Virus record (IMG/VR): IMGVR_UViG_3300029157_000022
Direction: 5' to 3' (one strand)
DNA: 8,915 nucleotides
DNA from: a virus
Lineage: Duplodnaviria > Heunggongvirae > Uroviricota > Caudoviricetes
Made by a program: the position numbers and the translations under genes. Numbering within the stretch: position 1 is the stretch's first letter; each line of letters begins with the position of its first letter. Positions 1 to 8,915 of this stretch are shown in pieces. The notes below the pieces were generated by a model that was not told the origin of the DNA, searched no databases, and saw nothing but the letters and a program-made list of their open reading frames with translations.

Positions 1-69
1 TCTGAGGCAGCACCTGGCACGGCTGGGACGGAAGTCGCTGTCGTTTTCAAAATCGGTGGAGCTGCATGA
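1..69 (+). CDS. Possible 3' end of an upstream gene running off the left edge (frame 1, ...[22 protein letters not shown], stop TGA 67-69); partial
   Basis: Frame 1 is open from the window edge to TGA at 67-69, with Ala/Gly/Thr/Val-rich codons like the downstream genes. Frame 2 is also open to TAA at 110-112, so the frame is uncertain. Too short to call firmly. Confidence 0.2.
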
Positions 70-136
70 CAAAGTCATCGGGCATTATCTGAACATAAAA
101 CACTATCAATAAGTTGGAGTCATTACCAACAACTGA

Positions 137-148
137 AAGGAAAATAAT
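137..148 (+). promoter_or_regulatory. Ribosome-binding region of gene 1 (AAGGAAAATAAT; AGGA core 10 nt before the ATG)
   Basis: Purine-rich Shine-Dalgarno-like AAGGA at 137-141, ATG at 152. The identical 12-mer recurs before gene 2. Confidence 0.6.
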
Positions 149-151
149 CTT

Positions 152-535
152 ATGGCTAACCCATATGGAAAATTAAAAGCAGTGAATGCGGATAACTCCC
201 GTTCACGCTGTAAGGTAGTAGCTTACGCTGCTGATCCAGTGCTGCAAGATCGCCTCGTCAAACTGGCTTCACCTCTCACTGACGATCTTATTGTCGGGGC
301 TTTGCTGAAAGCCGATGGCACCAAAGCAACAACCGCTTCTGATATTGCTCACGTAGTAGTTGAACCGGCTTATGAAGGACAGGAAAGCGTAGTGGTTGCA
401 CATCCTACTTTCGTTATTCTGGCTGAAGATGGGATTGAATTTAACAGCATGGAAAAGGCAAGTGTTATTGCAAAACTGCAATCTCTCGGCTTTGTAATTG
501 CTGGTTATGAAGAACTTGCGATCCCTACGACTTAA
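152..535 (+). CDS. Hypothetical protein, 127 aa; candidate small virion-associated (decoration-like) protein, function unassigned
   Basis: ORF with ATG at 152 and TAA at 533-535, preceded by a strong AAGGA RBS. First of a co-directional gene pair (127 aa then 343 aa) separated by 14 nt. No family recognised by eye. Confidence 0.8.
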   Translation: MANPYGKLKAVNADNSRSRCKVVAYAADPVLQDRLVKLASPLTDDLIVGALLKADGTKATTASDIAHVVVEPAYEGQESVVVAHPTFVILAEDGIEFNSMEKASVIAKLQSLGFVIAGYEELAIPTT

Positions 536-536
536 C

Positions 537-548
537 AAGGAAAATAAT
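537..548 (+). promoter_or_regulatory. Ribosome-binding region of gene 2 (AAGGAAAATAAT; identical 12-mer to 137-148)
   Basis: Exact repeat of the 12-mer found before gene 1, here ending 1 nt before the ATG at 550. Confidence 0.6.
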
Positions 549-549
549 A

Positions 550-1581
550 ATGAATGATTTATCAACATATTTTGGCGTTAATACTGCGGTAGTAACTCCA
601 TTTGCTTATGAGAATGCACTTAATACCCTGATTACTAATCTCGATCTGTTCGATGTGCAATATCATACAGAAAACAGCATTCTTCTTACCGACCTGATTG
701 AGCAGTTTGTGCAGGTAGCCGGGGAAACCTCGCCTTACACTCAAAGCAACTGGAACGCTTCTAAACGTCAGGAATGGTCAAACAAACTTTTCCAGATGAA
801 ACACGTCGGCAGTATTAACGCTGTTACTTCTCGTGACCTGGAACAATACAGCCGCCAATATCCAAACCGTTCTGATGCTATGCTGGTAGCGGTTAATGAT
901 TTCTCTGAGGCTCATTACCGTTCACACGCAAACCGTGTTGAAGTGGATCTGATTACCGCGCTGCTGGGACTGAAAGTTGAATCTGAATATGCCGGACAAG
1001 GTGATCTCGACTTCCTCGACGGTCAGGCTAAAACCACGGTACCCGCTATCGACTTTGCATCGACTACTGTTAACCCGTTCCTTGCTATTCGTAAAGCGGT
1101 GCGCTTACAGAGTGAAAAGCTGGGGTCTGGTCTTGCTGCAAAGCGAACTGGTGTAATTATCTTTGCTGCTGGCGCTGCTGCTGATGGTTTGTCATCTAAC
1201 CCGCTGATCAGTGACATGGTGAAATATGCAGGCGATGCGAGTGCTACGGCCCTGTTTACCCGTATGGTTGATTCTAACCCAGCCTATGACTCTTTCCAGA
1301 TTGGTGGGATCACTGTTATTGATGTGTCAATGTTTCCTGAGATTGTTGCTCACATCGGAGAGAACGGTTTCGCAATTGTCCCGGTAATGGATAAAGCGGC
1401 ACAGTGTTACCAGCTTCATAGCGGCGTTGGTGTGCGTCATGCTGAGTTAGGTCAAGATGCCGTGTTGCATCACCAATATCTAATCAAGGATGAATTCCAA
1501 TTCCCATCTGTGGTTACTGAGACATCTTATCTGCCAGTAAACAACATTCCGCAAGCTATCATCTTCGGATCTGCTGCGTAA
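550..1581 (+). CDS. Hypothetical protein, 343 aa; Ala/Val/Thr/Ser/Asn-rich, candidate major structural (capsid-like) protein, unverified
   Basis: Long ORF (ATG 550, TAA 1579-1581) with a strong RBS and a 14-nt gap after gene 1. The size and small-upstream-partner arrangement resemble decoration/major-capsid gene pairs. No catalytic motif recognised. Confidence 0.85.
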   Translation: MNDLSTYFGVNTAVVTPFAYENALNTLITNLDLFDVQYHTENSILLTDLIEQFVQVAGETSPYTQSNWNASKRQEWSNKLFQMKHVGSINAVTSRDLEQYSRQYPNRSDAMLVAVNDFSEAHYRSHANRVEVDLITALLGLKVESEYAGQGDLDFLDGQAKTTVPAIDFASTTVNPFLAIRKAVRLQSEKLGSGLAAKRTGVIIFAAGAAADGLSSNPLISDMVKYAGDASATALFTRMVDSNPAYDSFQIGGITVIDVSMFPEIVAHIGENGFAIVPVMDKAAQCYQLHSGVGVRHAELGQDAVLHHQYLIKDEFQFPSVVTETSYLPVNNIPQAIIFGSAA

Positions 1582-1593
1582 TAAAGCATTAAT

Positions 1594-1611
1594 AGACGAT
1601 TCCCATCGTCT
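1594..1611 (+). promoter_or_regulatory. Perfect hairpin (7-bp stem AGACGAT/ATCGTCT, 4-nt loop TCCC) just downstream of gene 2; possible attenuator or RNA-stability element
   Basis: Inverted repeat read directly in the sequence. It is not followed immediately by a U-tract; a T-rich run lies further downstream at about 1672-1687. Confidence 0.3.
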
Positions 1612-1734
1612 GGAAAATAATGGTAAAGGGATTAACTAACCTGTAGGCGCAAATACAGTAACGAATCTCTTTGCCCTTTTTGTTTTTCTACTGTCTACAA
1701 ACCCAAATAAAAATATATATGTGAGAGAAAACCA

Positions 1735-1932
1735 ATGAATACAGAAAATTCACAGGCATTAATTCTTAAATCTGTAAAAGAACTGGCAGCTATTAGCGAT
1801 GACTCAATAATCAATGTCAGTGCCTTATGCAGAATGCTTTCAATTGATGCAAATAATGTGCGTCAGCGTGTCTTTCAGACTGGATGTAGCACTTTCGAAG
1901 CAATCCAATATTATTGCTCTAAAAAACAATAA
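1735..1932 (+). CDS. Small hypothetical protein, 65 aa; possible helix-turn-helix-like segment
   Basis: ORF with ATG at 1735 and TAA at 1930-1932, preceded by a weak purine-rich RBS (GAGAGAAA). The segment VSALCRMLSIDANNVRQRV loosely fits a helix-turn-helix pattern. The gene is short, so less certain. Confidence 0.5.
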   Translation: MNTENSQALILKSVKELAAISDDSIINVSALCRMLSIDANNVRQRVFQTGCSTFEAIQYYCSKKQ

Positions 1933-1966
1933 CAAACAACAATCATAATACAGGGAAACAATTAGC

Positions 1967-3808
1967 ATGTTAGAGCTAAACGTGGCACGCCTCTCGAACG
2001 TTGTCACCTTCGAAGTTAACCGACCATCATTAGAGAAAGCAAAAGCAGAAGTAGAAAAACTTCGTAAACAAATGGCGGCGGTGAAAGATATAGAATTGCG
2101 TGTTAAGACACATAAACAATCAACCGCTAAAGCAAAAAAAGACGTAGACGATATTGCTAAAAAGCAAGCACAGGCTGATAAAGCTAATGCTAAAGCACAA
2201 TTAGCCGCTCAACGTGTAGTTGCAAGAGAACAAAAAGCCCTGGCAGCACGCAAAGAGAAGGCAGAATTAAAGCTTTTAGACGTTGGATCAAGCATTAGTG
2301 CAATGCACCGTCTTTCTGTAGCGGAACAATATAAAGCTATTGCACAGGCTAGAGAAATTGCCCTCCAATATGAAAGAGGAGCTATTAGTCTGGCACGTAT
2401 GAATAGCCAAATGAAACGCCTACAACAGCAACAACGTAAGATTAATGGCAATCGTAACGCTCACGCTAAAGCCTATGCACCTGTTAAGGGTAGCGGGAGT
2501 ATTGGCGGCGGTGCTGCGGCTGTTATGCTGGGTGGCTTAGGCGCTGGCGCTACGTATATGGCTATGAGCAAAGCCTCTGAATTTGTTACTAACAGCTTTG
2601 CGAATGCTGAAACGCTGGGTGAATTGTATAGCCGTGCGAAGCTGGGCGGTGTAGACGTTAACCAGATGAACAATATTGAACAATGGGCTTATAAAAACGG
2701 CGTTGATTCAATGATGGGCGAACAAGGTAAACGTAAGTATCTCGATCAGATGAAAGATGTACGGGAGAAGGCTACTAAATCTTATGATGAGGCTGAATAT
2801 GTAGTTGATAAGAAAACTGGTAAAGGAGAATGGAAGGGCGGCGATAGCGGCATCAATACTTTAATGAATGAAGGATTCCTAACTAAAAAGGATCTAAAAG
2901 ACTTTGCTGATAATCCGGCTGGTCTGGTTAGTAAAGCAGTTCAGGGAATGGTAGCTAAAGGCTATTCAGATGCACAAATCGGTAGTCGTCTGGAAGATCT
3001 GGCTGATGATTTGATGCTCACCTCTAAATACTGGACACGCTCCGCTAAAGAAGTGGAACAATCAGCACGAGAACAACGAGAATCAGGGCGCTGGGTAACG
3101 CAGGCACAACAGGAAAGCGTTATTAAATTCCGTGAACTGAATAATGCACTTAGTGGGCTTTCTGACTCACAAGGGATCGCCTTTGTTGATGGCTTTATGA
3201 AATCTCTTGATCCGAAAGTGATTGAAGAGTTTAAAAAGAGCATGGTTGCAATGCTGCCAATGTTTACCAAATTAGGCGAGGCTATCGGCGGATTGGTTAA
3301 CGCTGTAATGAAAGCAATCAACTGGCTGATGAAAAACGACGAGAAGACGGCTGCTATTCAAAAGAATTTAGGTGATGCACCGCCACTGTCTAACGAAGGA
3401 ATGAAGCAGAATCTTTCTAATCTCACTCCTAACCAATATAAAGGCGCTGGCACCGGAACAACTAAGCCAGATAACAGCAATTCCCTGGTTAACACTATTA
3501 AAGGCTGGTTTACGCCAGAAGAGACGGTAGGCGGGGCGCAGGCTGTAAATCAATACACTCTCGAAGGACAAAACATTGCAAATCTGAAACAGAGTGCAGC
3601 ACAACAAGCTATCAAGACTCCTTCTTACACCTTTGCACCTGTTATTAACTTCAATCCAGAATTACAAGTAAATGCAGAAGTGCCGCTAACTATCGAATCA
3701 GACACCGGACGATTGAGCGAATTTATCGACTTCAAATCAAAGGCATCTTCCGCTGAGTTTAGCAAGCTATTAACGCTGGGTGTTATGTCAGGCGGGTCAA
3801 CCTATTAA
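1967..3808 (+). CDS. Hypothetical 613 aa protein: N-terminal Lys/Ala/Gln-rich coiled coil, glycine-zipper hydrophobic segment (aa 175-200), then a roughly 400 aa C-terminal region of unknown function
   Basis: ORF with ATG at 1967 and TAA at 3806-3808; RBS AGGGAAA at 1952-1958. Residues about 20-165 are heptad-like and charged (KAKAEVEKLRKQ...AKKQAQADKANAKAQLAAQ). Residues 175-200 read GSGSIGGGAAAVMLGGLGAGATYMAM (nt 2489-2566). Confidence 0.9.
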   Translation: MLELNVARLSNVVTFEVNRPSLEKAKAEVEKLRKQMAAVKDIELRVKTHKQSTAKAKKDVDDIAKKQAQADKANAKAQLAAQRVVAREQKALAARKEKAELKLLDVGSSISAMHRLSVAEQYKAIAQAREIALQYERGAISLARMNSQMKRLQQQQRKINGNRNAHAKAYAPVKGSGSIGGGAAAVMLGGLGAGATYMAMSKASEFVTNSFANAETLGELYSRAKLGGVDVNQMNNIEQWAYKNGVDSMMGEQGKRKYLDQMKDVREKATKSYDEAEYVVDKKTGKGEWKGGDSGINTLMNEGFLTKKDLKDFADNPAGLVSKAVQGMVAKGYSDAQIGSRLEDLADDLMLTSKYWTRSAKEVEQSAREQRESGRWVTQAQQESVIKFRELNNALSGLSDSQGIAFVDGFMKSLDPKVIEEFKKSMVAMLPMFTKLGEAIGGLVNAVMKAINWLMKNDEKTAAIQKNLGDAPPLSNEGMKQNLSNLTPNQYKGAGTGTTKPDNSNSLVNTIKGWFTPEETVGGAQAVNQYTLEGQNIANLKQSAAQQAIKTPSYTFAPVINFNPELQVNAEVPLTIESDTGRLSEFIDFKSKASSAEFSKLLTLGVMSGGSTY

Positions 3809-3818
3809 TCATCACTGT

Positions 3819-3834
3819 GGGGCGGTTTAGCCCC
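3819..3834 (+). promoter_or_regulatory. GC hairpin (GGGGC / GCCCC, 6-nt loop) between gene 4 stop and gene 5 RBS
   Basis: Inverted repeat read directly in the sequence. No U-tract follows, so it is not a classic terminator. Confidence 0.25.
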
Positions 3835-3855
3835 CTTAAATAAGGATTACAAATT

Positions 3856-4533
3856 ATGGCAATGGGTCCGTTAACCATTGGTCGCCCGACTGAGGCGAAA
3901 ATCAACAGCACAAGCAACGATAGCAACGGTAGAACAACTAAAGGGGGTAACGGCTTTGCGATCATTACCTCTAACCTCGGCAGTGGTGCAAATGCTGCTT
4001 ACAATGACTACCAGGCATTATCATTTGATAGCGTGGAATCGACGAAAGTTAGCCGAAATGCAGACGTTACAAGCTATGCCGTCGAATCAGGATCAGAAGT
4101 TAGTGATCATGTTCAAATACGGAATAACAAGTTCACATTACAAGGGCGTATCTCTGAAACCGTATTGAAGCTCAATCCCGATATGATTAAGAATGCGGGA
4201 ATTAACGGCAATCGACGTATGCTTATGCTTGAATACCTAAATCAGTTGATGGACAGTCGCCAACCTTTCCTACTTGTCACTGAGTTAAAAAATTATGACA
4301 ACGTTGTGTTAGTTGGCATGTCTTACGCAGAAGAAGCAAGCGAAAGCCTATTGTTTACTCTTGATTTTGAGCAAATCCGTCTTGTCTCTAAAGCAACTAC
4401 AAGCGCAATTGCGGTAAAAACAGCACCAAATAAATCTGTAGGGGGACAGGTTAAAATGCAGGTAAATACAACAGAACAGAAAAATCAAAAAAGCCCAGGG
4501 CAAGACGTTGTAACGCCAGTATTTAAACAATAG
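3856..4533 (+). CDS. Hypothetical protein, 225 aa; Ser/Thr/Asn/Gly-rich N-terminal region and Lys/Gln-rich C-terminal tail
   Basis: ORF with ATG at 3856 and TAG at 4531-4533; RBS AAGGA at 3842-3846. Last gene of the co-directional module. Confidence 0.8.
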   Translation: MAMGPLTIGRPTEAKINSTSNDSNGRTTKGGNGFAIITSNLGSGANAAYNDYQALSFDSVESTKVSRNADVTSYAVESGSEVSDHVQIRNNKFTLQGRISETVLKLNPDMIKNAGINGNRRMLMLEYLNQLMDSRQPFLLVTELKNYDNVVLVGMSYAEEASESLLFTLDFEQIRLVSKATTSAIAVKTAPNKSVGGQVKMQVNTTEQKNQKSPGQDVVTPVFKQ

Positions 4534-4574
4534 CCTTAAACGCCTATGAAACGCTCTGTAACGAGATAATCATA

Positions 4575-4610
4575 AAAGAGGCATCAGTCTATATTGAAGC
4601 CTCTTTATTA
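4575..4610. terminator. Candidate bidirectional terminator between the convergent module and the integrase gene (8-bp stem AAAGAGGC/GCCTCTTT, 16-nt loop, then TTATTA)
   Basis: Inverted repeat at 4575-4582 and 4599-4606, in the 80-nt gap between the gene 5 stop (4533) and the integrase stop (4614). The loop is long and the U-tract is imperfect. Confidence 0.45.
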
Positions 4611-4613
4611 CGT

Positions 4614-5891
4614 CTACAGCGTTGTTTTACGCCTTAAATTTGATTTTTTATTGATTGATAAGCCTTTCTCTATTTCAGGGTAGCGTAAAAGCTCAATATA
4701 TTTTTTAAGCTCTACTGGAGAAGCTGCATTCTTGCTATATGTGCGGAATGTTTCTGTATTGCCGCGTGTATGGCCCAGGAGAAGGGCGATCCTGTCTTCT
4801 GGAATTTGATTTCGATCAAGAAGCTGTGCTACTCCGTGTCTCAGAGAATGAAACACTTTCCTTTCTGTTCCCTTTTCCCCTAAAGCCTTTCGTTTAGCTC
4901 TTGTAAATCTCTGCGTATGCCACGTGGAACGTTTACCATCAGCACGCTCTGTAATGCTGGCGTGATAGAACAAAAAGCCATTGTGAGGCTTTTCACGCAG
5001 CGACAACACCAACGGAGTGATAAGGCTATGTACAGGCACAACACGTGCCGCTGCTTTCGTCTTTCCCTGTGTGATTTCAAAACACAGCACACCTTCGATC
5101 TCTTTCACATCGTCTATTGTGAGACTTGCTATCTCATTGATCCGCATACCTGTATAGGCACCGATAAGACACAAAGCCATCATTTCTTTGTTTTCTGCTG
5201 AATCACCGGAAAATACTTGCAACACCTGCAATAGCTCTTTGTTAGAAAATGCCTCGTAGCTCTCTCTACTTTGTGCCACATCAAGCCTATGCCCTCGCCA
5301 GGGGGAGAGCGCCCTTTCTGGCGCATCGTGGTAACGTGATGAAGCTAATTCCCATAGCTGGGCCATTGGGCTGATATAATTTGCAATTGATTGTTGTGAA
5401 AGGGTTTTTTGCATGTGTTCAATCCAGCCTGTAACAGTGGTGCGGCTTACATCTTGCAATGCAATATCAGGCTTTTTACGGTAGGAGAGAAACATCTCTA
5501 CCGCTTTTCTTGCCTTAGCTAAAGTGGCTGGCTTATTCTTCGTGCTGTTAATTGTCAGGTAGATTTCAAGAATTTTAAGCAATGACGGACACGAAGACGC
5601 TGTATCTTGCATTCTGGTAGCTGTTTTGGCGTATTTAGCCTTACTGCGTAACAGTTCCAGCGTGTTTTCTATTGTGCTGTTTACAGGGGCGACACTCTCC
5701 CGTAAGCAATGGTATTCATCTGCAATCTGATCACGCTTTCTACGTGCAACACGAAGATTACTTGTGTGTAGACTTCTGACAAACGTCCTTTTTCCTTCAA
5801 AAAAGGGCTGCATATACACAGGCAGCGTTATCCTTAAATAGTAGTTACCGTAAGAATCACAGATTAAGTATTGGTTAGGCTTGTATCTCAT
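4614..5891 (-). CDS. int: Tyrosine recombinase / phage-type integrase (425 aa from the RBS-supported ATG; the open frame continues to a TTG at 5978)
   Basis: Catalytic-domain signatures are present: GMRINE (box I Arg), HSLRHG (His-x-x-Arg), LLGH, and a terminal Tyr in FRTYSK. The ATG at 5889-5891 has GGAG 5 nt upstream on the minus strand. The gene lies beside a tRNA 3' fragment. Confidence 0.9.
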   Translation of the reverse strand: MRYKPNQYLICDSYGNYYLRITLPVYMQPFFEGKRTFVRSLHTSNLRVARRKRDQIADEYHCLRESVAPVNSTIENTLELLRSKAKYAKTATRMQDTASSCPSLLKILEIYLTINSTKNKPATLAKARKAVEMFLSYRKKPDIALQDVSRTTVTGWIEHMQKTLSQQSIANYISPMAQLWELASSRYHDAPERALSPWRGHRLDVAQSRESYEAFSNKELLQVLQVFSGDSAENKEMMALCLIGAYTGMRINEIASLTIDDVKEIEGVLCFEITQGKTKAAARVVPVHSLITPLVLSLREKPHNGFLFYHASITERADGKRSTWHTQRFTRAKRKALGEKGTERKVFHSLRHGVAQLLDRNQIPEDRIALLLGHTRGNTETFRTYSKNAASPVELKKYIELLRYPEIEKGLSINKKSNLRRKTTL

Positions 5892-5985
5892 AAAATCTCC
5901 GGCTAAAGTGTCGGAGCGTTTGTAATGTGAAAATTGATTGTGATGCATAGAAAATGATGATTTTTCTATAAGATTCAATCAATTA

Positions 5986-6052
5986 GTAATGGTCGTAGGT
6001 GATGGCATTAACACGAGATTAATCGAGTGTTTTACTCCTATTATCGGCACCA
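5986..6052 (+). other. tRNA-Thr-like remnant / attachment-site core: 3'-terminal 19 nt ACTCCTATTATCGGCACCA (6034-6052) plus upstream tRNA-like pieces GTAAT and GGTCGTAGGT (5986-6000); not an intact tRNA
   Basis: The segment ends in the CCA acceptor with a T-arm-like ACTCC. As I recall it, this matches the 3' end of E. coli tRNA-Thr(CGU) thrW. No complete cloverleaf can be formed, since the 5' half is replaced by unrelated sequence. Confidence 0.5.
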
Positions 6053-6178
6053 TTAAAATCAAAGAGTTACCCCATATTTAAATACACCACGTTTCCTCCT
6101 GTGCCGTATTTGTGCCATTGTAACCTTGGCAATTCATCAAAATACTGTTCTGACATCAGGCAGTGCAGGTGCAGACAT

Positions 6179-6499
6179 TTAAGCCAATTGCTGCCGCCAT
6201 TCTTTGACGTAGTCAATCAGGGCGCGGAGCTTTGGTGCAATATTGCGACGCTGTGGGAAATACAGATAGAAGCCCGGAAATTGTGGAAGAAAGTCATCAA
6301 GCAGCGATACAAGCTTACCGCTTTCAATATATGGCCTGAAAGTTTCCTGAGTGGCAATTGTTATTCCTCCGCCGGCAAGAGCCAGCCTCAACATCAGACG
6401 CAGATCATTAGTCGTAATCTGCGGTTCAATCGCAAGGTCGAAAGTTCTCCCGTTTTCTTCAAATGGCCAGCGATAAGGCGCAACCTCCGGGGACTGACG
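6179..6499 (-). pseudogene. yagP: 5'-truncated LysR-family transcriptional regulator remnant (C-terminal part of the effector-binding domain only; no HTH domain)
   Basis: The open frame from the stop at 6500-6502 to the stop at 6179-6181 encodes about 106 aa ending ...GGGITIATQETFRPYIESGKLVSLLDDFLPQFPGFYLYFPQRRNIAPKLRALIDYVKEWRQQLA, typical of a LysR C-terminus. Only 65 nt separate it from the upstream paoD stop, so the N-terminal roughly 200 aa are absent. The symbol is from recalled K-12 synteny. Confidence 0.6.
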
Positions 6500-6567
6500 C
6501 TAGCCGATACACTTATGGGTATTTCCCCCGGAGGCGAGAAAGCGCTCTCCACGCCCGGCCGCAAGGA

Positions 6568-7524
6568 TCAGGACGACGGGGGCAGGCATGAATCCTCCTC
6601 CTGATGGAGACGTACAGAGGCGACTTCTGCCAGCACGGAGAGTGCCAGAGTATGCGCATCCCGGGCTTTGGGGAATATCCCGACGGGTGCCCGGATTTGC
6701 GTTGTTTCCTCCCTGGACCATCCCAGCTCGTGGAGCTTTTGCAGACGTAACGTGTGGGTTCGATAGCTGCCCAATGCGCCGAGATAAAAGGGTTTTGCTT
6801 CTCGCGCGGCCTGCAACACTGGCAGCTCCCGGTTGAGATCATGGCACAGCAAAATGACCGCCGTATCGGTATCGATCTGAGCGCTGGCTGAGGCCGGAAA
6901 AAGATCGAAGATATGGCTGTCATAGCCTGTGGCTGCTGCAAGACTCGCGGTTGCCTGCGCCTCAAGAGAACGTCCGTAAATCATCAGCCTGACGCATGGC
7001 CTGAACCCCACCTCAAAGCCATTGAGATTCCAGCCCGTCCGGGTTTGCGTGGGCAGGCACACCAGCGATTGTGCTTGCGGATCGTAGCGCAGCCCCACCG
7101 GTTTTCTCTGTTCCAGGCGGTTCAGCACGGCGAGCAGAGGCTGTGCCGAGCGTAGTTTATGGAGCGTCAGCGTGATCCCACCGCCGCAGGGCAGAACGAT
7201 GTCAAACCACGGCGAACCTTCGCCATAGCGAATTTCGCGATCGCGGCCTGAGCCCATCATCTCCAGCGCTTCAAAAGCGGCAGCGGCCTCCACGCAGCCG
7301 CCAGAGACAAAACCGCAGTAACGACCATCTTCGCGCACCACCATCTGCGCCCCGAGCGGGCGCGCCGCGCCGCCGCGTATCTCCACCAGCGTCACCAGCA
7401 CCGCTCCTTTACCGGACATTAGCGCCTCTACGGCGAAGCGCAGAATGGTCCGGTGGTCATCGGTGAGAAACGCCTGCTCTGGCTTATGCCAGTGTTCGTC
7501 TTTGTCAAAAAGCGGGTATGACAT
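6568..7524 (-). CDS. paoD: XdhC-family molybdenum cofactor insertion chaperone for aldehyde oxidoreductase (318 aa)
   Basis: ORF of 318 aa with ATG at 7522-7524 and a perfect GGAGG 5 nt upstream. It lies immediately downstream of the molybdopterin-subunit gene, and the product and symbol follow from that synteny and a recalled match to E. coli yagQ/paoD. Confidence 0.75.
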   Translation of the reverse strand: MSYPLFDKDEHWHKPEQAFLTDDHRTILRFAVEALMSGKGAVLVTLVEIRGGAARPLGAQMVVREDGRYCGFVSGGCVEAAAAFEALEMMGSGRDREIRYGEGSPWFDIVLPCGGGITLTLHKLRSAQPLLAVLNRLEQRKPVGLRYDPQAQSLVCLPTQTRTGWNLNGFEVGFRPCVRLMIYGRSLEAQATASLAAATGYDSHIFDLFPASASAQIDTDTAVILLCHDLNRELPVLQAAREAKPFYLGALGSYRTHTLRLQKLHELGWSREETTQIRAPVGIFPKARDAHTLALSVLAEVASVRLHQEEDSCLPPSS

Positions 7525-7533
7525 TGTTCCTCC

Positions 7534-8915
7534 TTAAACCACATCCGGCAGCTTATCGAGCAGCTTATCCAGAGTGATGGGATAATCCCGTACCCGAATA
7601 CCGGTGGCGTTATACACCGCGTTGGCGATAGCCGCGCTCACGCCGCACAGGCCCAGCTCACCGACACCTTTGGCCTTCATCGGGGAGGATATGGGGTCGG
7701 TATCATCCAGGAAAATCACCTCCTGTTTTGGGATATCCGCATGAACCGGCACCTCATACCCCGCCATATCGTGATTAACGAAGTAGCCCAAACGGTCATC
7801 CACCGCCAGCTCCTCCATCAGTGCCGCGCCCATGCCCATAGTCATTGCGCCAATGACCTGGCTGCGCGCAGTTTTCGGATTCAGGATGCGTCCTGCAGCA
7901 CACACAGCGAGCATACGCCGGACCCGAACTTCTCCCGTCGCGCTATGCACGCCGACCTCCACAAAATGCCCGGCAAAGGTCGACTGCTGGTACTCTTTGC
8001 TCAGTGTTCCGAATTCAATGCTCTCTTCCGCTGTCAGTCTGCCGCCTGCGGTGGCTTCATGTAGCGTGGCGCTTCGGGTACCGTTGGTAATCTTGCCGTC
8101 GGCAAACTGCGACTGCTCAGGATCAAACCCGACTGCCGAGGCAATCATTTCGCGAAGCTTCATACAGGCGGCGTAAACGCCGGAGGTGGAGGTATTCGCG
8201 CCCCATTGTCCACCAGAACCCGCAGAAACCGGGAAACTGGAATCGCCGAGGTGAACCGCAACCTGCTCCAGCGGTACGCCAAGCATTTCCGCTGCCGTCT
8301 GGGCCAGAATGGTGTAGCTGCCGGTGCCAATGTCGGTCATGTCCGTTTCTACGGTAACGGTGCCGTTTTGTTCGAGGTGAACCCGAGCACCCGATTTTTC
8401 CAGCAGATTATTGCGAAAGCCCGCCGCAACACCGTGGCCGACTAGCCACTCCCCGTCGCGCACCTGTCCGGGTGTGGCGTTGCGCTGCTTCCAGCCAAAT
8501 TTATCCGCTCCGGTGCGCAAGCACTCGATAAGCTGACGGCGAGAGAAGCAGCGCGTCGGGTCGGCGGGGTCAACCTGAGTGTCATTCAGGATGCGAAACT
8601 CGACGGGATCGATGCCCGCTTTTTCCGCCAGTTCGTCGATCGCGATTTCGAGCGCCATCAGACCGGGGGCTTCGCCGGGCGCACGCATGGCGTTCCCTTC
8701 CGGCAAATCAAGCGTGGCGAGCCGCAGGCCGGTATGACGATTCGCCCCGGCGTAGAGTAATTCGCTTTGCTGTACCGCCGTTTCCGGCGTGCCGCCGGGC
8801 AGGTTTCCAGACCAGCTTTCATGTGAGATAGCGGTGATTTTCCCGCTCTGGTCGGCACCGATACGCAAGTGCTGAAGGGTGGCGGGGCGGTGCGTGGTGT
8901 TATTGGGAATAGAGG
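7534..8915 (-). CDS. paoC: Aldehyde oxidoreductase molybdopterin-binding large subunit, C-terminal about 460 aa (partial; 5' end beyond the right edge)
   Basis: The frame is open on the minus strand from the window edge to TAA at 7534-7536. The ORF-track start at 8868 is an internal TTG, not the true start. Product and symbol rest on synteny with the downstream chaperone gene and a recalled match to E. coli yagR/paoC. Confidence 0.75.
   Translation of the reverse strand, partial: SIPNNTTHRPATLQHLRIGADQSGKITAISHESWSGNLPGGTPETAVQQSELLYAGANRHTGLRLATLDLPEGNAMRAPGEAPGLMALEIAIDELAEKAGIDPVEFRILNDTQVDPADPTRCFSRRQLIECLRTGADKFGWKQRNATPGQVRDGEWLVGHGVAAGFRNNLLEKSGARVHLEQNGTVTVETDMTDIGTGSYTILAQTAAEMLGVPLEQVAVHLGDSSFPVSAGSGGQWGANTSTSGVYAACMKLREMIASAVGFDPEQSQFADGKITNGTRSATLHEATAGGRLTAEESIEFGTLSKEYQQSTFAGHFVEVGVHSATGEVRVRRMLAVCAAGRILNPKTARSQVIGAMTMGMGAALMEELAVDDRLGYFVNHDMAGYEVPVHADIPKQEVIFLDDTDPISSPMKAKGVGELGLCGVSAAIANAVYNATGIRVRDYPITLDKLLDKLPDVV

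What the first reader, a model, noticed from the sequence alone, without database searches (positions are those of the whole stretch)
152..1581. Gene pair 127 aa + 343 aa resembles a decoration / major-capsid arrangement
The pair matches in size and order the small-decoration plus about 340 aa major-capsid pairs of lambda-type heads (D about 110 aa, E about 341 aa, from memory). Both genes carry an identical strong RBS, and the larger protein is Ala/Val/Thr/Ser-rich with no recognisable catalytic motif. If this is a capsid gene, it sits unusually close to the integrase end of the element.
Basis: inference. Interest (0 to 1): 0.55.

Follow-up and report, generated by a model that had tools for sequence, protein, structure and literature searches.

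The report
Capsid gene pair in satellite-like island
The two genes do encode a phage head decoration protein and a major capsid protein, but they sit in a small, widespread, apparently undescribed 12-13 kb island that carries only four virion genes, so it probably needs a large virulent helper phage.

Summary
ORFs 152-535 (127 aa) and 550-1581 (343 aa) are intact and share the 12-mer AAGGAAAATAAT before their start codons.

- The 343 aa protein is a divergent lambda-gpE-family (HK97-fold) major capsid protein. The evidence is indirect: Pfam-positive relatives, and capsid-only Foldseek hits from a low-confidence model.
- The 127 aa protein has the gpD/SHP decoration fold (pLDDT 77.5). It is also homologous to decoration proteins solved in the Sf14 and Bas63 capsids.

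The context is unusual. The pair belongs to a roughly 13 kb island at thrW, with attR at 6034-6053. IS1 cuts the island 24 nt upstream of the first gene. The island's only virion genes are decoration, capsid, tape measure and tail-tube initiator. The last two find phage relatives only in phi92/phAPEC8-like virulent myophages of about 150 kb.

The same architecture recurs in at least 12 enterobacterial genera under strong purifying selection. Intact relatives also carry an iteron array, a Rep-like gene and anti-phage cargo. I found no published description.

My best reading is a new phage-satellite family that supplies its own capsid shell (p about 0.45-0.5). Assembly interference and an inert remnant are the rivals.

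The parts
1..127 (+). End of an IS1 copy (transposase C-terminus and terminal inverted repeat). It is a strain-specific insertion that interrupts the island.
   Evidence: Bases 1-151 match thousands of E. coli loci annotated as IS1 family transposase. Homology to uninterrupted islands begins exactly at 128. L021 is 99.9% identical over 128-8899 and has no IS1 there.
128..147 (+). Last five codons plus stop (QLKGK*) of the ~65 aa island gene that normally precedes the decoration gene. IS1 has cut it off.
   Evidence: The L001 ORF 19823-20020 ends ...IKQLKGK. Window sequence.
137..148 (+). Shine-Dalgarno block AAGGAAAATAAT of the decoration gene.
152..535 (+). Head decoration (cement) protein, 127 aa, with the gpD/SHP-like fold.
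   Evidence: AF2 pLDDT 77.5. Foldseek PDB and BFVD top hits are decoration proteins. hhalign to phiEa21-4 gp51 gives probability 93%, E=3.3e-7, and gp51 is homologous to the solved decoration proteins 9c2d_J and 9ncf_J. dN/dS is 0.1-0.3 in most pairs.
537..548 (+). Identical Shine-Dalgarno block AAGGAAAATAAT of the capsid gene.
550..1581 (+). Major capsid protein, 343 aa. It is a divergent branch of the lambda gpE family (PF03864) with the HK97 fold.
   Evidence: BLASTP to the ESCO5 capsid protein gives 24% identity over 183 aa, E=9e-5, with the shared motif (I/V)DFASTTV(N/S)P. The hhalign alignment to it is full length, E=7.9e-5. dN/dS is 0.05-0.09 in the Klebsiella/Enterobacter/Cronobacter subgroup.
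1612..1646 (+). Third copy of GGAAAATAAT, followed by an 8-codon mini-ORF (ATG at 1620, stop at 1644-1646). It may be the relic start of a gene lost between the capsid and tape-measure genes.
1735..1932 (+). Conserved 62-66 aa protein, possibly helix-turn-helix, always found between the capsid and tape-measure genes.
   Evidence: An ORF of 62-66 aa sits at this position in all 13 related loci, with sequence similarity detected in most. The Klebsiella homologue has weak HTH hits (DUF2089-HTH E=0.0011). No family hit for the window copy.
1967..3808 (+). Tape-measure-like protein, 613 aa.
   Evidence: phrog_16051 E=1e-30. Matches Phi92_gp134 at E=4.6e-21. tblastn finds 134 phage records, nearly all ~145-155 kb phi92/phAPEC8-like myophages, at about 30% identity. 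The first 34 aa are 47% identical to the ESCO5 tape-measure N-terminus.
3856..4533 (+). Tail-tube initiator (Dit-like), 225 aa.
   Evidence: Pfam PF21821 E=1.4e-27. Matches Phi92_gp135 at E=4.9e-53, the PhiTE 'tube initiator' at 4.7e-10 and the Pam3 tube initiator. About 53% identical to the Phapecoctavirus homologues.
4614..5978 (-). Tyrosine integrase (DUF6538, SAM-like and catalytic domains). The longest ORF starts at TTG 5978; the PGAP-equivalent start is ATG 5891 (425 aa).
6034..6053 (+). attR core: a 20 nt stretch identical to the 3' end of the thrW tRNA-Thr gene. It marks the right boundary of the island.
   Evidence: The tRNA-Thr lies at the other end of the intact island in L001.

Best explanation
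Shown. ORF 152-535 encodes a gpD/SHP-fold capsid decoration protein. ORF 550-1581 encodes a lambda-gpE-family, HK97-fold major capsid protein. They are a tightly spaced pair with identical Shine-Dalgarno blocks, and I infer that they are co-transcribed. The pair is the first half of a five-gene late module: decoration, capsid, small HTH-like protein, tape measure, tail-tube initiator. That module lies in a roughly 13 kb island integrated at thrW. The island has no portal, terminase, protease, scaffold, connector, sheath, tube or baseplate genes. In this window IS1 has inserted 24 nt upstream of the decoration gene.

Inferred. The island is a phage satellite of phi92/phAPEC8-like (Stephanstirmvirinae) virulent myophages. 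On infection it would excise using its integrase and replicate from its 22-bp iteron array with its Rep-like protein. It would then express its own capsid and decoration proteins to build a shell sized for about 13 kb on the helper's portal and scaffold. Its own tape measure and tube initiator would seed tails made from helper tube, sheath and baseplate parts.

My estimate for the protein identities is about 0.9. My estimate for the satellite mechanism, given those identities, is about 0.5. The confidence given for this explanation (0.5) is for identities and satellite mechanism together. The IS1-cut copy in this window may be crippled.
For: Identity of the pair.

Island anatomy:
- The intact island in STEC316 runs from tRNA-Thr to the integrase. 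It carries a serine invertase, a Rep-like wHTH protein (phrog_270, E=1e-7) and small genes ahead of the late module. No other structural genes were detected.
- It has four to five 22-bp iterons and a GC content of 32-48%, against 51% in the flanks.
- attR lies at window 6034-6053.

Family conservation:
- The order decoration-capsid-orf62/65-tape measure-(tube initiator)-integrase recurs in Escherichia, Klebsiella, Enterobacter, Cronobacter, Citrobacter, Buttiauxella, Kosakonia, Phytobacter, Scandinavium and Raoultella, and more divergently in Yersinia, at several chromosomal sites.
- The decoration family has 138 clusters, all in Enterobacteriaceae and all annotated as hypothetical.
- Capsid dN/dS is 0.05-0.09 at dS above 1.

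Helper link:
- The tube initiator is 53-64% identical, and the tape measure 30-40% identical, to phi92/phAPEC8-like phage proteins. All three island tape-measure variants hit 134 phage records out of 50,697, with the same organism and host breakdown.
- The four genes keep the phage order: phi92 gp123-124 and gp134-135, and the same order in ESCO5.
- The tape measure keeps the phage-like N-terminal 34 aa as well as the C-terminal two-thirds.

Satellite-like cargo: PD-T7-4 (E=6e-96) and a type IV restriction-like HNH protein lie at the attL side of some islands.
Against: - There is no experimental or virome evidence of packaging. The IMG/VR hits are prophage calls from isolate genomes plus one metagenome contig.
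- No helper has been demonstrated.
- The island capsid protein is only about 24% identical to the putative helper's, so compatibility with the helper portal, scaffold and protease is doubtful.
- Neither the late-module DNA nor the island's two large non-coding stretches resemble any of 50,697 phage genomes, so no shared pac/cos site or promoter was seen.
- No terminase small subunit or other packaging-redirection gene was recognised.
- The capsid AF2 model is poor (pLDDT 50.7), and the protein itself does not reach any Pfam threshold.
- I know of no described satellite that encodes a tape measure (from memory).
- The copy in the window is IS1-interrupted.
Confidence: 0.5

Rival explanations
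1. Assembly-interference (decoy) island. The element is mobile only through its integrase, or is not mobile at all. Its diverged copies of capsid, decoration, tape-measure and tube-initiator proteins act as dominant-negative subunits that poison head and tail assembly of infecting phi92/phAPEC8-like phages, protecting the population. The island's own DNA would not be packaged.
For: The structural paralogues are specifically related to one group of virulent phages. Known defence genes are co-resident in the same islands. Strong purifying selection shows that the proteins are used. Anti-phage systems that block virion or tail assembly have been published (titles and abstracts seen: PMC10884400, PMC11364771).
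Against: A poison subunit should stay close enough to co-assemble with its target, but the capsid protein is about 24% identical and the decoration protein is related only at fold level. A capsid protein conserved together with a matching decoration protein and identical translation signals looks like a self-sufficient shell. The iteron origin and Rep-like gene are not needed for a pure defence island. Interference and satellite transfer are also not mutually exclusive.
Confidence: 0.2
2. Inert remnant. The pair is left over from an ordinary temperate prophage that decayed at thrW, like cryptic CP4-6 in K-12 (from memory), and has no present function.
For: Most virion genes are missing. This copy is cut by IS1. 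The tube-initiator gene is split by ISKpn26 in O104:H4 strains. An 8-codon mini-ORF with the same ribosome-binding motif after the capsid gene looks like a deletion scar.
Against: The same reduced gene set, in the same order and with intact ORFs, occurs in at least 12 genera at different integration sites, down to 29% capsid identity. Capsid dN/dS is 0.05-0.09 with saturated synonymous sites. No complete phage among 50,697 genomes carries a related capsid gene detectable by tblastn. This may still describe the individual IS1-hit copy, but not the family.
Confidence: 0.12
3. Not a capsid pair at all. The 343 aa protein would be a tail or enzymatic protein and the 127 aa protein something unrelated, or the pair would form an encapsulin-like nanocompartment.
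For: Neither protein has a direct Pfam or NCBIfam hit. The capsid model is of low confidence. Encapsulins appear lower in the Foldseek list.
Against: All significant fold matches of both models are capsid or decoration proteins. Homology to Phage_cap_E through intermediates holds for 10 of 10 distant relatives scanned. The neighbours are tail genes, not encapsulin cargo enzymes.
Confidence: 0.03

Closest known systems
Lambda gpD / gpE (and phage 21 SHP) decoration and major capsid pair
   Same: The gene order is the same (small decoration gene directly upstream of a ~340 aa capsid gene) and so are the sizes. The capsid protein belongs to the same Pfam family through intermediates (PF03864) and the decoration protein has the same fold.
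   Different: No direct sequence similarity to lambda E or D (hhalign probability below 1%). Foldseek ranks lambda below the myophage capsids. Here there is no adjacent portal, protease or scaffold, and no FI/FII connector genes.
phi92 / phAPEC8 / ESCO5 (Stephanstirmvirinae) gp123-gp124 and gp134-gp135
   Same: The four island virion genes keep the order of the phage's decoration, capsid, tape-measure and tube-initiator genes. The tube initiator is 53-64% identical and the tape measure 30-40% identical. The capsid protein aligns end to end with a shared DFASTTV motif.
   Different: The capsid protein is only about 24% identical, and the decoration protein shows no detectable sequence similarity to the phage's. 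The nine or so genes between them in the phage (connectors, sheath, tube, chaperone) are absent. The island is integrative and about 13 kb; the phages are virulent and about 150 kb.
FelixO1-like (Ounavirinae) decoration proteins: Sf14, Bas63, phiEa21-4 gp51
   Same: These are the closest detectable sequence relatives of the 127 aa protein (hhalign probability 93%) and the best fold matches (TM 0.60-0.66). They occupy the same position directly upstream of a Phage_cap_E capsid gene.
   Different: About 20% identity. Those phages are complete virulent myophages of about 85 kb.
Capsid-forming PICIs (cf-PICI)
   Same: A small integrative island that brings its own capsid protein rather than only remodelling the helper's.
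   Different: From the literature, cf-PICIs carry a whole head module (capsid, protease, portal, connectors, small terminase) and steal only tails (PMC10085698, read, mentions 'specific core components of cfPICI'; the component list is from memory). This island has only capsid and decoration genes for the head, and adds tape-measure and tube-initiator genes. A cf-PICI capsid (9gyi) is a weak Foldseek hit, E=0.03.
PLE of Vibrio cholerae (satellite of virulent myophage ICP1), and P4
   Same: These are small integrative parasites of myophages that end up in small capsids. The ICP1 capsid protein is among the best fold matches of the island capsid protein (8g1r). Some islands also carry a defence cargo region, as described for P4-like satellites (PMC9122126 abstract).
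   Different: PLE and P4 re-size the helper's own capsid protein with an external scaffold (TcaP for PLE, title of 8g1r and PMC10945586 abstract; Sid for P4, from memory). This island encodes its own capsid protein. No homologues of their marker genes were seen in the family scans.

Membership tests
Lambda gpE-type major capsid proteins (Pfam PF03864 Phage_cap_E) | The protein itself scores above the Pfam gathering threshold (22.9 bits). | tested here: not met
   No Pfam hit at E<=0.1 for the window protein. Only PHROG phrog_29 'major head protein' at E=3.4e-5.
Lambda gpE-type major capsid proteins (Pfam PF03864 Phage_cap_E) | Homology to accepted family members, shown through intermediates or a profile. 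| tested here: met
   Relatives at 44-48% identity score 23.0-29.3 bits. All 10 distant full-length hits of the family profile that I scanned score 23.4-87.2 bits. The hhalign alignment to the ESCO5 capsid protein (itself 125 bits to PF03864) is full length, E=7.9e-5.
Lambda gpE-type major capsid proteins (Pfam PF03864 Phage_cap_E) | HK97-like fold. | tested here: met
   The 19 Foldseek PDB hits with E<=1e-3 are all phage capsid chains, including lambda gpE (8k39), and the top hit is PhiTE at E=4.5e-9. Caveat: model pLDDT is 50.7 and TM only about 0.43.
Lambda gpE-type major capsid proteins (Pfam PF03864 Phage_cap_E) | Assembles into an icosahedral shell. | not testable with these tools
   Needs expression and electron microscopy.
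gpD/SHP-like trimeric head decoration proteins (Pfam PF02924 HDPD and relatives) | Direct profile match to a curated decoration family. | tested here: not met
   No Pfam hit to HDPD. PHROG 'head decoration' phrog_2680 only at E=0.068. The family profile finds nothing significant among PDB sequences.
gpD/SHP-like trimeric head decoration proteins (Pfam PF02924 HDPD and relatives) | The decoration-protein fold. | tested here: met
   AF2 pLDDT 77.5, pTM 0.69. The top 13 PDB hits are PhiTE, Sf14 and Bas63 decoration proteins and phage 21 SHP (TM 0.54-0.68). Lambda gpD follows with TM 0.49-0.66 but weak E-values. Every named hit among the top 12 BFVD matches is a head decoration protein, best E=4.6e-8.
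gpD/SHP-like trimeric head decoration proteins (Pfam PF02924 HDPD and relatives) | Sequence homology to an experimentally located decoration protein. | tested here: met
   hhalign of the 39-sequence profile to phiEa21-4 gp51 gives probability 93%, E=3.3e-7. gp51 matches chains in the Sf14 and Bas63 capsid reconstructions at E about 1e-27.
gpD/SHP-like trimeric head decoration proteins (Pfam PF02924 HDPD and relatives) | Gene lies immediately upstream of the capsid gene. | tested here: met
gpD/SHP-like trimeric head decoration proteins (Pfam PF02924 HDPD and relatives) | Trimerises and binds capsid three-fold sites. | not testable with these tools
   No multimer prediction or experiment was available.
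Phage satellites (generic) | Small integrative element with its own integrase and att sites. | tested here: met
   About 12.9 kb from the thrW tRNA gene to attR in L001. The integrase and the 20-nt attR core are present in the window.
Phage satellites (generic) | Own replication module. | tested here: inconclusive
   A Rep-like wHTH protein gives only weak matches (phrog_270, E=1.2e-7). An array of four to five 22-bp iterons is present. Both lie outside the window, in intact relatives.
Phage satellites (generic) | Lacks a complete virion gene set, so depends on a helper. | tested here: met
   No portal, terminase, protease, sheath, tube or baseplate gene was found by Pfam or PHROG in the island.
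Phage satellites (generic) | Induced, packaged and transferred by a helper phage. | not testable with these tools
   No virome-derived or particle-derived evidence was found. An experiment is needed.
cf-PICI | Full head module: capsid, prohead protease, portal, head-tail connectors and small terminase. | tested here: not met
   Only capsid and decoration genes are present. None of the others was detected.
P4-like satellites | The psu, sid, delta, alpA and alpha primase-helicase marker set (list from memory). | tested here: not met
   No such PHROG or Pfam hits among the island proteins.

The most novel reading that the evidence does not exclude
The island is the founding example of an undescribed, Enterobacterales-wide family of phage satellites that parasitise large virulent phi92/phAPEC8-like myophages. 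Its strategy would be new. Instead of re-sizing the helper's capsid protein (P4, SaPI, PLE) or bringing a whole head module (cf-PICI), it would supply only the shell (its own capsid and decoration proteins) and the tail-initiating pair (tape measure and tube initiator), and take everything else from the helper.
Probability: 0.45. Interest if true: 0.8.

Novelty: new variant of a known kind. Interest (0 to 1): 0.6.

Why it matters
The gene pair on its own is ordinary: one more divergent lambda-E/gpD-type capsid and decoration pair.

The interest lies in where it sits. It is in a compact island with iterons, a Rep-like gene and an integrase. That island is present in about 2.6% of complete E. 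coli genomes and in many other enterobacterial genera. It keeps exactly four virion genes under strong purifying selection.

If the island is a satellite, it would be the first reported for the Stephanstirmvirinae group of large virulent coliphages, as far as my literature searches reach. Phages of that group are being explored for biocontrol and therapy (abstracts of PMC5374246 and PMC10269720). It would also add a fourth capsid strategy, 'bring only your own shell protein', to those known for satellites. It would be the first satellite I know of with its own tape measure.

If the island is instead an assembly-poisoning defence, it would be a new kind of decoy system.

Either way it gives a direct, testable link between a common chromosomal island and one phage group. 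It also gives names to several hundred proteins now annotated as hypothetical.

Tried and rejected
1. Direct family scans of both proteins (Pfam, NCBIfam, PADLOC) gave nothing usable.
2. tblastn of the capsid protein against 50,697 phage genomes gave no hit at 1e-3. Megablast of the late module found nothing. Distant blastn of the island's two large non-coding stretches found nothing either, so no shared pac/cos site or promoter DNA was seen.
3. Profile searches against PDB sequences were weak for the capsid protein (9zbi capsid protein E=0.013; Phi92_gp124 E=0.45) and gave nothing for the decoration protein.
4. hhalign against lambda E and D, and against the ESCO5 decoration protein, found no similarity. 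The relationship to lambda proper is therefore at family and fold level only.
5. The first AF2 run on the capsid protein used only 14 sequences and gave a poor model (pLDDT 50.7).
6. I looked for an invertible segment that the island's serine invertase might flip. No convincing flanking inverted repeats were found.
7. Rfam found nothing in the window or the island apart from thrW. Promoter and terminator scans were at background level.
8. IMG/VR hits were checked as possible evidence of encapsidation. Nine of the ten are prophage calls from isolate genomes and one is a metagenome contig, so they are not virome particles.
9. I considered and rejected a tail sheath, tail tube or enzyme identity for the 343 aa protein, and an encapsulin reading.
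10. Seven literature searches covered satellites together with capsid/tape-measure terms, Phapecoctavirus/Stephanstirmvirinae/phi92, and the RefSeq protein accessions. None found a description of this island. Term look-ups in the SatelliteFinder paper and a Pakpunavirus paper found none either.
Full report
OBSERVATION

The window holds two adjacent + strand ORFs exactly as described: 152-535 (127 aa) and 550-1581 (343 aa). Both are preceded by the same 12-mer, AAGGAAAATAAT (137-148 and 537-548). The core 10-mer GGAAAATAAT occurs three times on the + strand, against 0.03 expected. The third copy (1612-1621) lies just after the capsid gene and precedes only an 8-codon mini-ORF. The Ala/Val/Thr/Ser richness is real (33.8%) but no greater than in neighbouring genes.

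The rest of the window reads as follows.
- Bases 1-127 are the end of an IS1 copy.
- Three more + strand genes follow the capsid gene: 65 aa, 613 aa and 225 aa.
- A tyrosine integrase lies on the minus strand (4614-5891/5978).
- A 20-nt copy of the 3' end of tRNA-Thr thrW lies at 6034-6053.
- E. coli chromosomal genes come next: a LysR fragment, paoD and paoC.

THE 343 aa PROTEIN

It has no Pfam or NCBIfam hit of its own. It has one modest PHROG hit, phrog_29 'major head protein', E=3.4e-5. Four lines of evidence nevertheless identify it as a capsid protein.
- A search of 5.8 billion proteins found only 17 relatives. Several at 44-48% identity are named 'major capsid protein E' and carry PF03864. 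When rescanned, three reach the gathering score: 29.3, 23.7 and 23.0 bits against 22.9.
- An exhaustive HMMER search of 1.84 billion representatives with the family profile found only 60 proteins at E<=1e-3. All 10 distant full-length hits that I scanned are Phage_cap_E, at 23-87 bits.
- The AF2 model from a 14-sequence alignment is poor (pLDDT 50.7, pTM 0.53). Even so, its Foldseek hits in the PDB are HK97-fold shells only. The order is PhiTE (E=4.5e-9), ICP1, Bas63, Sf14, YSD1/Chi and lambda gpE. Encapsulins appear only further down.
- Against the ESCO5 capsid protein (Phapecoctavirus; itself 125 bits to PF03864), BLASTP gives 24% identity over 183 residues, E=9e-5, with the shared motif (I/V)DFASTTV(N/S)P. 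hhalign aligns the two end to end, E=7.9e-5.

Lambda E itself is not detectably similar in sequence.

Conclusion: this is a divergent, isolated branch of the lambda-gpE capsid family.

THE 127 aa PROTEIN

Sequence scans gave only hints: phrog_4146 at E=0.018 and phrog_2680 'head decoration' at E=0.068. A profile search found 138 clusters. All are in Enterobacteriaceae and all are annotated 'hypothetical protein'.
- The AF2 model from 39 sequences is usable (pLDDT 77.5, pTM 0.69).
- Every Foldseek PDB hit with E below 0.01 is a capsid decoration protein: PhiTE, Sf14, Bas63 and phage 21 SHP, with TM 0.54-0.68. Lambda gpD follows with weaker E-values.
- In BFVD, every named hit among the top matches is a head decoration protein, best E=4.6e-8.
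- At sequence level the family profile aligns to phiEa21-4 gp51 with hhalign probability 93%, E=3.3e-7. gp51 lies between the prohead protease gene and a strong Phage_cap_E capsid gene. Its homologues are chains in the Sf14 and Bas63 capsid reconstructions, one of them named 'Head stabilization/decoration protein'.

No similarity to lambda D or to the ESCO5/phi92 decoration protein is detectable by sequence.

Conclusion: this is a gpD/SHP-fold decoration protein.

THE CONTEXT: A COMPACT ISLAND, NOT A PROPHAGE

The window from 128 onward matches 139 of 5,426 complete E. coli genomes at up to 98.3% identity. It matches one IMG/VR isolate contig at 99.9% with no IS1. The IS1 is therefore strain-specific. 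It cuts the ~65 aa gene that normally precedes the decoration gene, five codons before that gene's stop.

In STEC316 the intact element runs from thrW to the integrase, about 12.9 kb. It contains:
- small ORFs and a serine invertase;
- a 1.5 kb non-coding stretch with four to five 22-bp iterons;
- a Rep-like wHTH protein (phrog_270, E=1e-7) and several small genes;
- a ~1 kb non-coding stretch;
- the late module: ~65 aa gene, decoration, capsid, 65 aa gene, 613 aa gene, 225 aa gene, then the integrase.

Its GC content is 32-48%, against 51% in the flanks. No portal, terminase, protease, scaffold, connector, sheath, tube or baseplate gene was found.

THE TWO TAIL GENES

The 613 aa protein is tape-measure-like (phrog_16051, E=1e-30). 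It matches Phi92_gp134 in the PDB at E=4.6e-21.

The 225 aa protein has the Pfam Dit_like domain (E=1.4e-27). It matches Phi92_gp135 (E=4.9e-53), the PhiTE 'tube initiator' and the Pam3 tube initiator.

By tblastn the tube initiator is about 53% identical to its Phapecoctavirus and Justusliebigvirus homologues. The tape measure is about 30% identical. The tape-measure search returns 134 of 50,697 phage records, nearly all ~145-155 kb phi92/phAPEC8-like myophages. A second E. coli allele and the Klebsiella island version each return 134 records with the same organism and host breakdown. The Klebsiella version aligns over its full length with the tape measure of a Klebsiella phage of that type.

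In ESCO5 the gene order is scaffold, decoration, capsid, connectors, sheath, tube, chaperone, tape measure, tube initiator. The island keeps the two ends of that series and lacks the middle. The island tape measure also keeps the phage-like first 34 residues at 47% identity.

THE FAMILY

The same core recurs next to a tyrosine integrase at several chromosomal sites. The core is the decoration gene (115-128 aa), the capsid gene (339-347 aa), a 62-66 aa gene and a tape-measure gene (600-633 aa), with or without the tube initiator. Genera with this core are Klebsiella, Enterobacter, Cronobacter, Citrobacter, Buttiauxella, Kosakonia, Phytobacter, Scandinavium and Raoultella. There is also a second E. 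coli lineage, and a Yersinia massiliensis member with only 29% capsid identity.
- Purifying selection is strong. Capsid dN/dS is 0.05-0.09 at dS 1.3-2.4 within the Klebsiella/Enterobacter/Cronobacter subgroup. Decoration dN/dS is 0.1-0.3 in most pairs.
- One E. coli island keeps the same capsid and decoration genes (98% identical DNA) but carries a different tape-measure/tube-initiator allele. That allele's tube initiator is 61-64% identical to the Phapecoctavirus protein, which indicates a module swap.
- The attL-side cargo varies and includes known defence genes: PD-T7-4 (E=6e-96) and a type IV restriction-like HNH protein.

MECHANISM

Shown: the identity of the four virion proteins, the island's boundaries and gene content, its conservation and selection, and the link of its tail genes to one phage group.

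Inferred: the island is a helper-dependent satellite of phi92/phAPEC8-like virulent myophages. It would excise with its integrase and replicate from its iterons with its Rep-like protein. Its own capsid and decoration proteins would form a shell suited to about 13 kb. For scale, P4 packages 11.6 kb in a T=4 head (from memory). Its tape measure and tube initiator would seed tails built from helper parts. I put this at about 0.45-0.5.

Main weaknesses:
- there is no evidence of packaging;
- no shared pac/cos site or promoter DNA was found;
- no packaging-redirection gene was recognised;
- the capsid protein is very distant from the helper's, which raises the question of compatibility with the helper's portal and scaffold.

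Rivals:
- an assembly-poisoning decoy island (about 0.2), which could coexist with satellite transfer;
- an inert remnant (about 0.12 for the family, more plausible for this IS1-hit copy);
- not a capsid pair at all (about 0.03).

COMPARISON WITH KNOWN SYSTEMS AND NOVELTY

The pair works like lambda D/E, and still more like the decoration and capsid pairs of PhiTE, Sf14 and phi92-type myophages. Membership of PF03864 holds through intermediates and fold, but not through the protein's own Pfam score.

The island does not meet the definitions of cf-PICI (it has no portal, protease, connectors or small terminase) or of P4-like satellites (it has no psu, sid, delta or primase). PLE and P4 re-size the helper's capsid protein rather than encoding one.

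Seven literature searches found no description of this island. Term look-ups in the SatelliteFinder paper and a Pakpunavirus paper found none either. The searched library excludes most subscription journals, so this absence is not proof.

VERDICT

The proteins are new members of known families. The element that carries them is best called a new variant of a known kind, a satellite-like island with an unprecedented gene set. Interest is 0.6.

Noticed in passing
window 1-147: An IS1 end abuts the island at base 127/128. It cuts the ~65 aa gene that normally precedes the decoration gene, five codons before that gene's stop, and so separates the capsid operon from its native upstream region. A 99.9% identical relative (L021) has no IS1 there.
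   Followed up: yes
window 1612-1646: A third exact copy of the ribosome-binding motif GGAAAATAAT lies 31 nt after the capsid stop codon and precedes only an 8-codon ORF (MVKGLTNL*). It may be the scar of a deletion that removed the genes between the capsid and tape-measure genes.
   Followed up: partly
window 5991-6053: A pseudo-tRNA-like stretch. GGTCGTAGGT and then the 20-mer ACTCCTATTATCGGCACCAT both match thrW, with about 33 nt of unrelated sequence between them. The 20-mer is the attR core.
   Followed up: yes
L019 11418-14049, compared with window 1967-4533: An island with 98% identical decoration and capsid genes carries a different tape-measure (633 aa) and tube-initiator (218 aa) allele. 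Homology breaks at the tape-measure start, so the tail half of the module is exchanged independently of the head half.
   Followed up: partly
E. coli O104:H4 genomes (hits H22-H25): In the O104:H4 outbreak-lineage genomes the tube-initiator ('phage baseplate protein') gene of this island is split by an ISKpn26 insertion. This is a second, independent IS hit on the late module.
   Followed up: no
L001 15434-15543: Four to five tandem 22-bp units (GGTAGGTCACTGTGAGCTAGGG) lie in the 1.5 kb non-coding stretch between the invertase gene and the Rep-like gene. They look like an iteron-type replication origin. This stretch lies outside the window, beyond the IS1.
   Followed up: partly
L001 14375-14932; L002 3835-4395; L009 4213-4773; L011 3907-4485: At the same island position, E. 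coli islands carry a 185 aa serine invertase/resolvase, whereas Klebsiella, Enterobacter and Cronobacter islands carry a 186-192 aa protein with a tyrosine-recombinase domain. Its target is unknown, and no flanking inverted repeats were found.
   Followed up: partly
L009 2401-3036; L010 2250-2972: The variable cargo at the attL side of related islands includes the defence genes PD-T7-4 (E=6e-96) and a type IV methyl-directed restriction-like HNH protein.
   Followed up: partly
window 4614-5978 (minus strand): The longest integrase ORF starts at a TTG (454 aa). RefSeq annotation of the equivalent gene starts 29 codons later at an ATG (425 aa, window 5891).
   Followed up: no
window 6179-6394 (minus strand): Only the C-terminal 71 aa of a LysR-type regulator remain (substrate-binding domain). 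RefSeq annotates the equivalent as a pseudogene next to the island's attR.
   Followed up: no
L006 4881-5252 (phiEa21-4 gp51) and relatives: The FelixO1-type decoration protein is annotated in GenBank variously as 'tail protease', 'methyl-accepting chemotaxis protein' or 'putative tail specific protease'. Solved capsid structures (9c2d, 9ncf) show it is a head decoration protein.
   Followed up: yes
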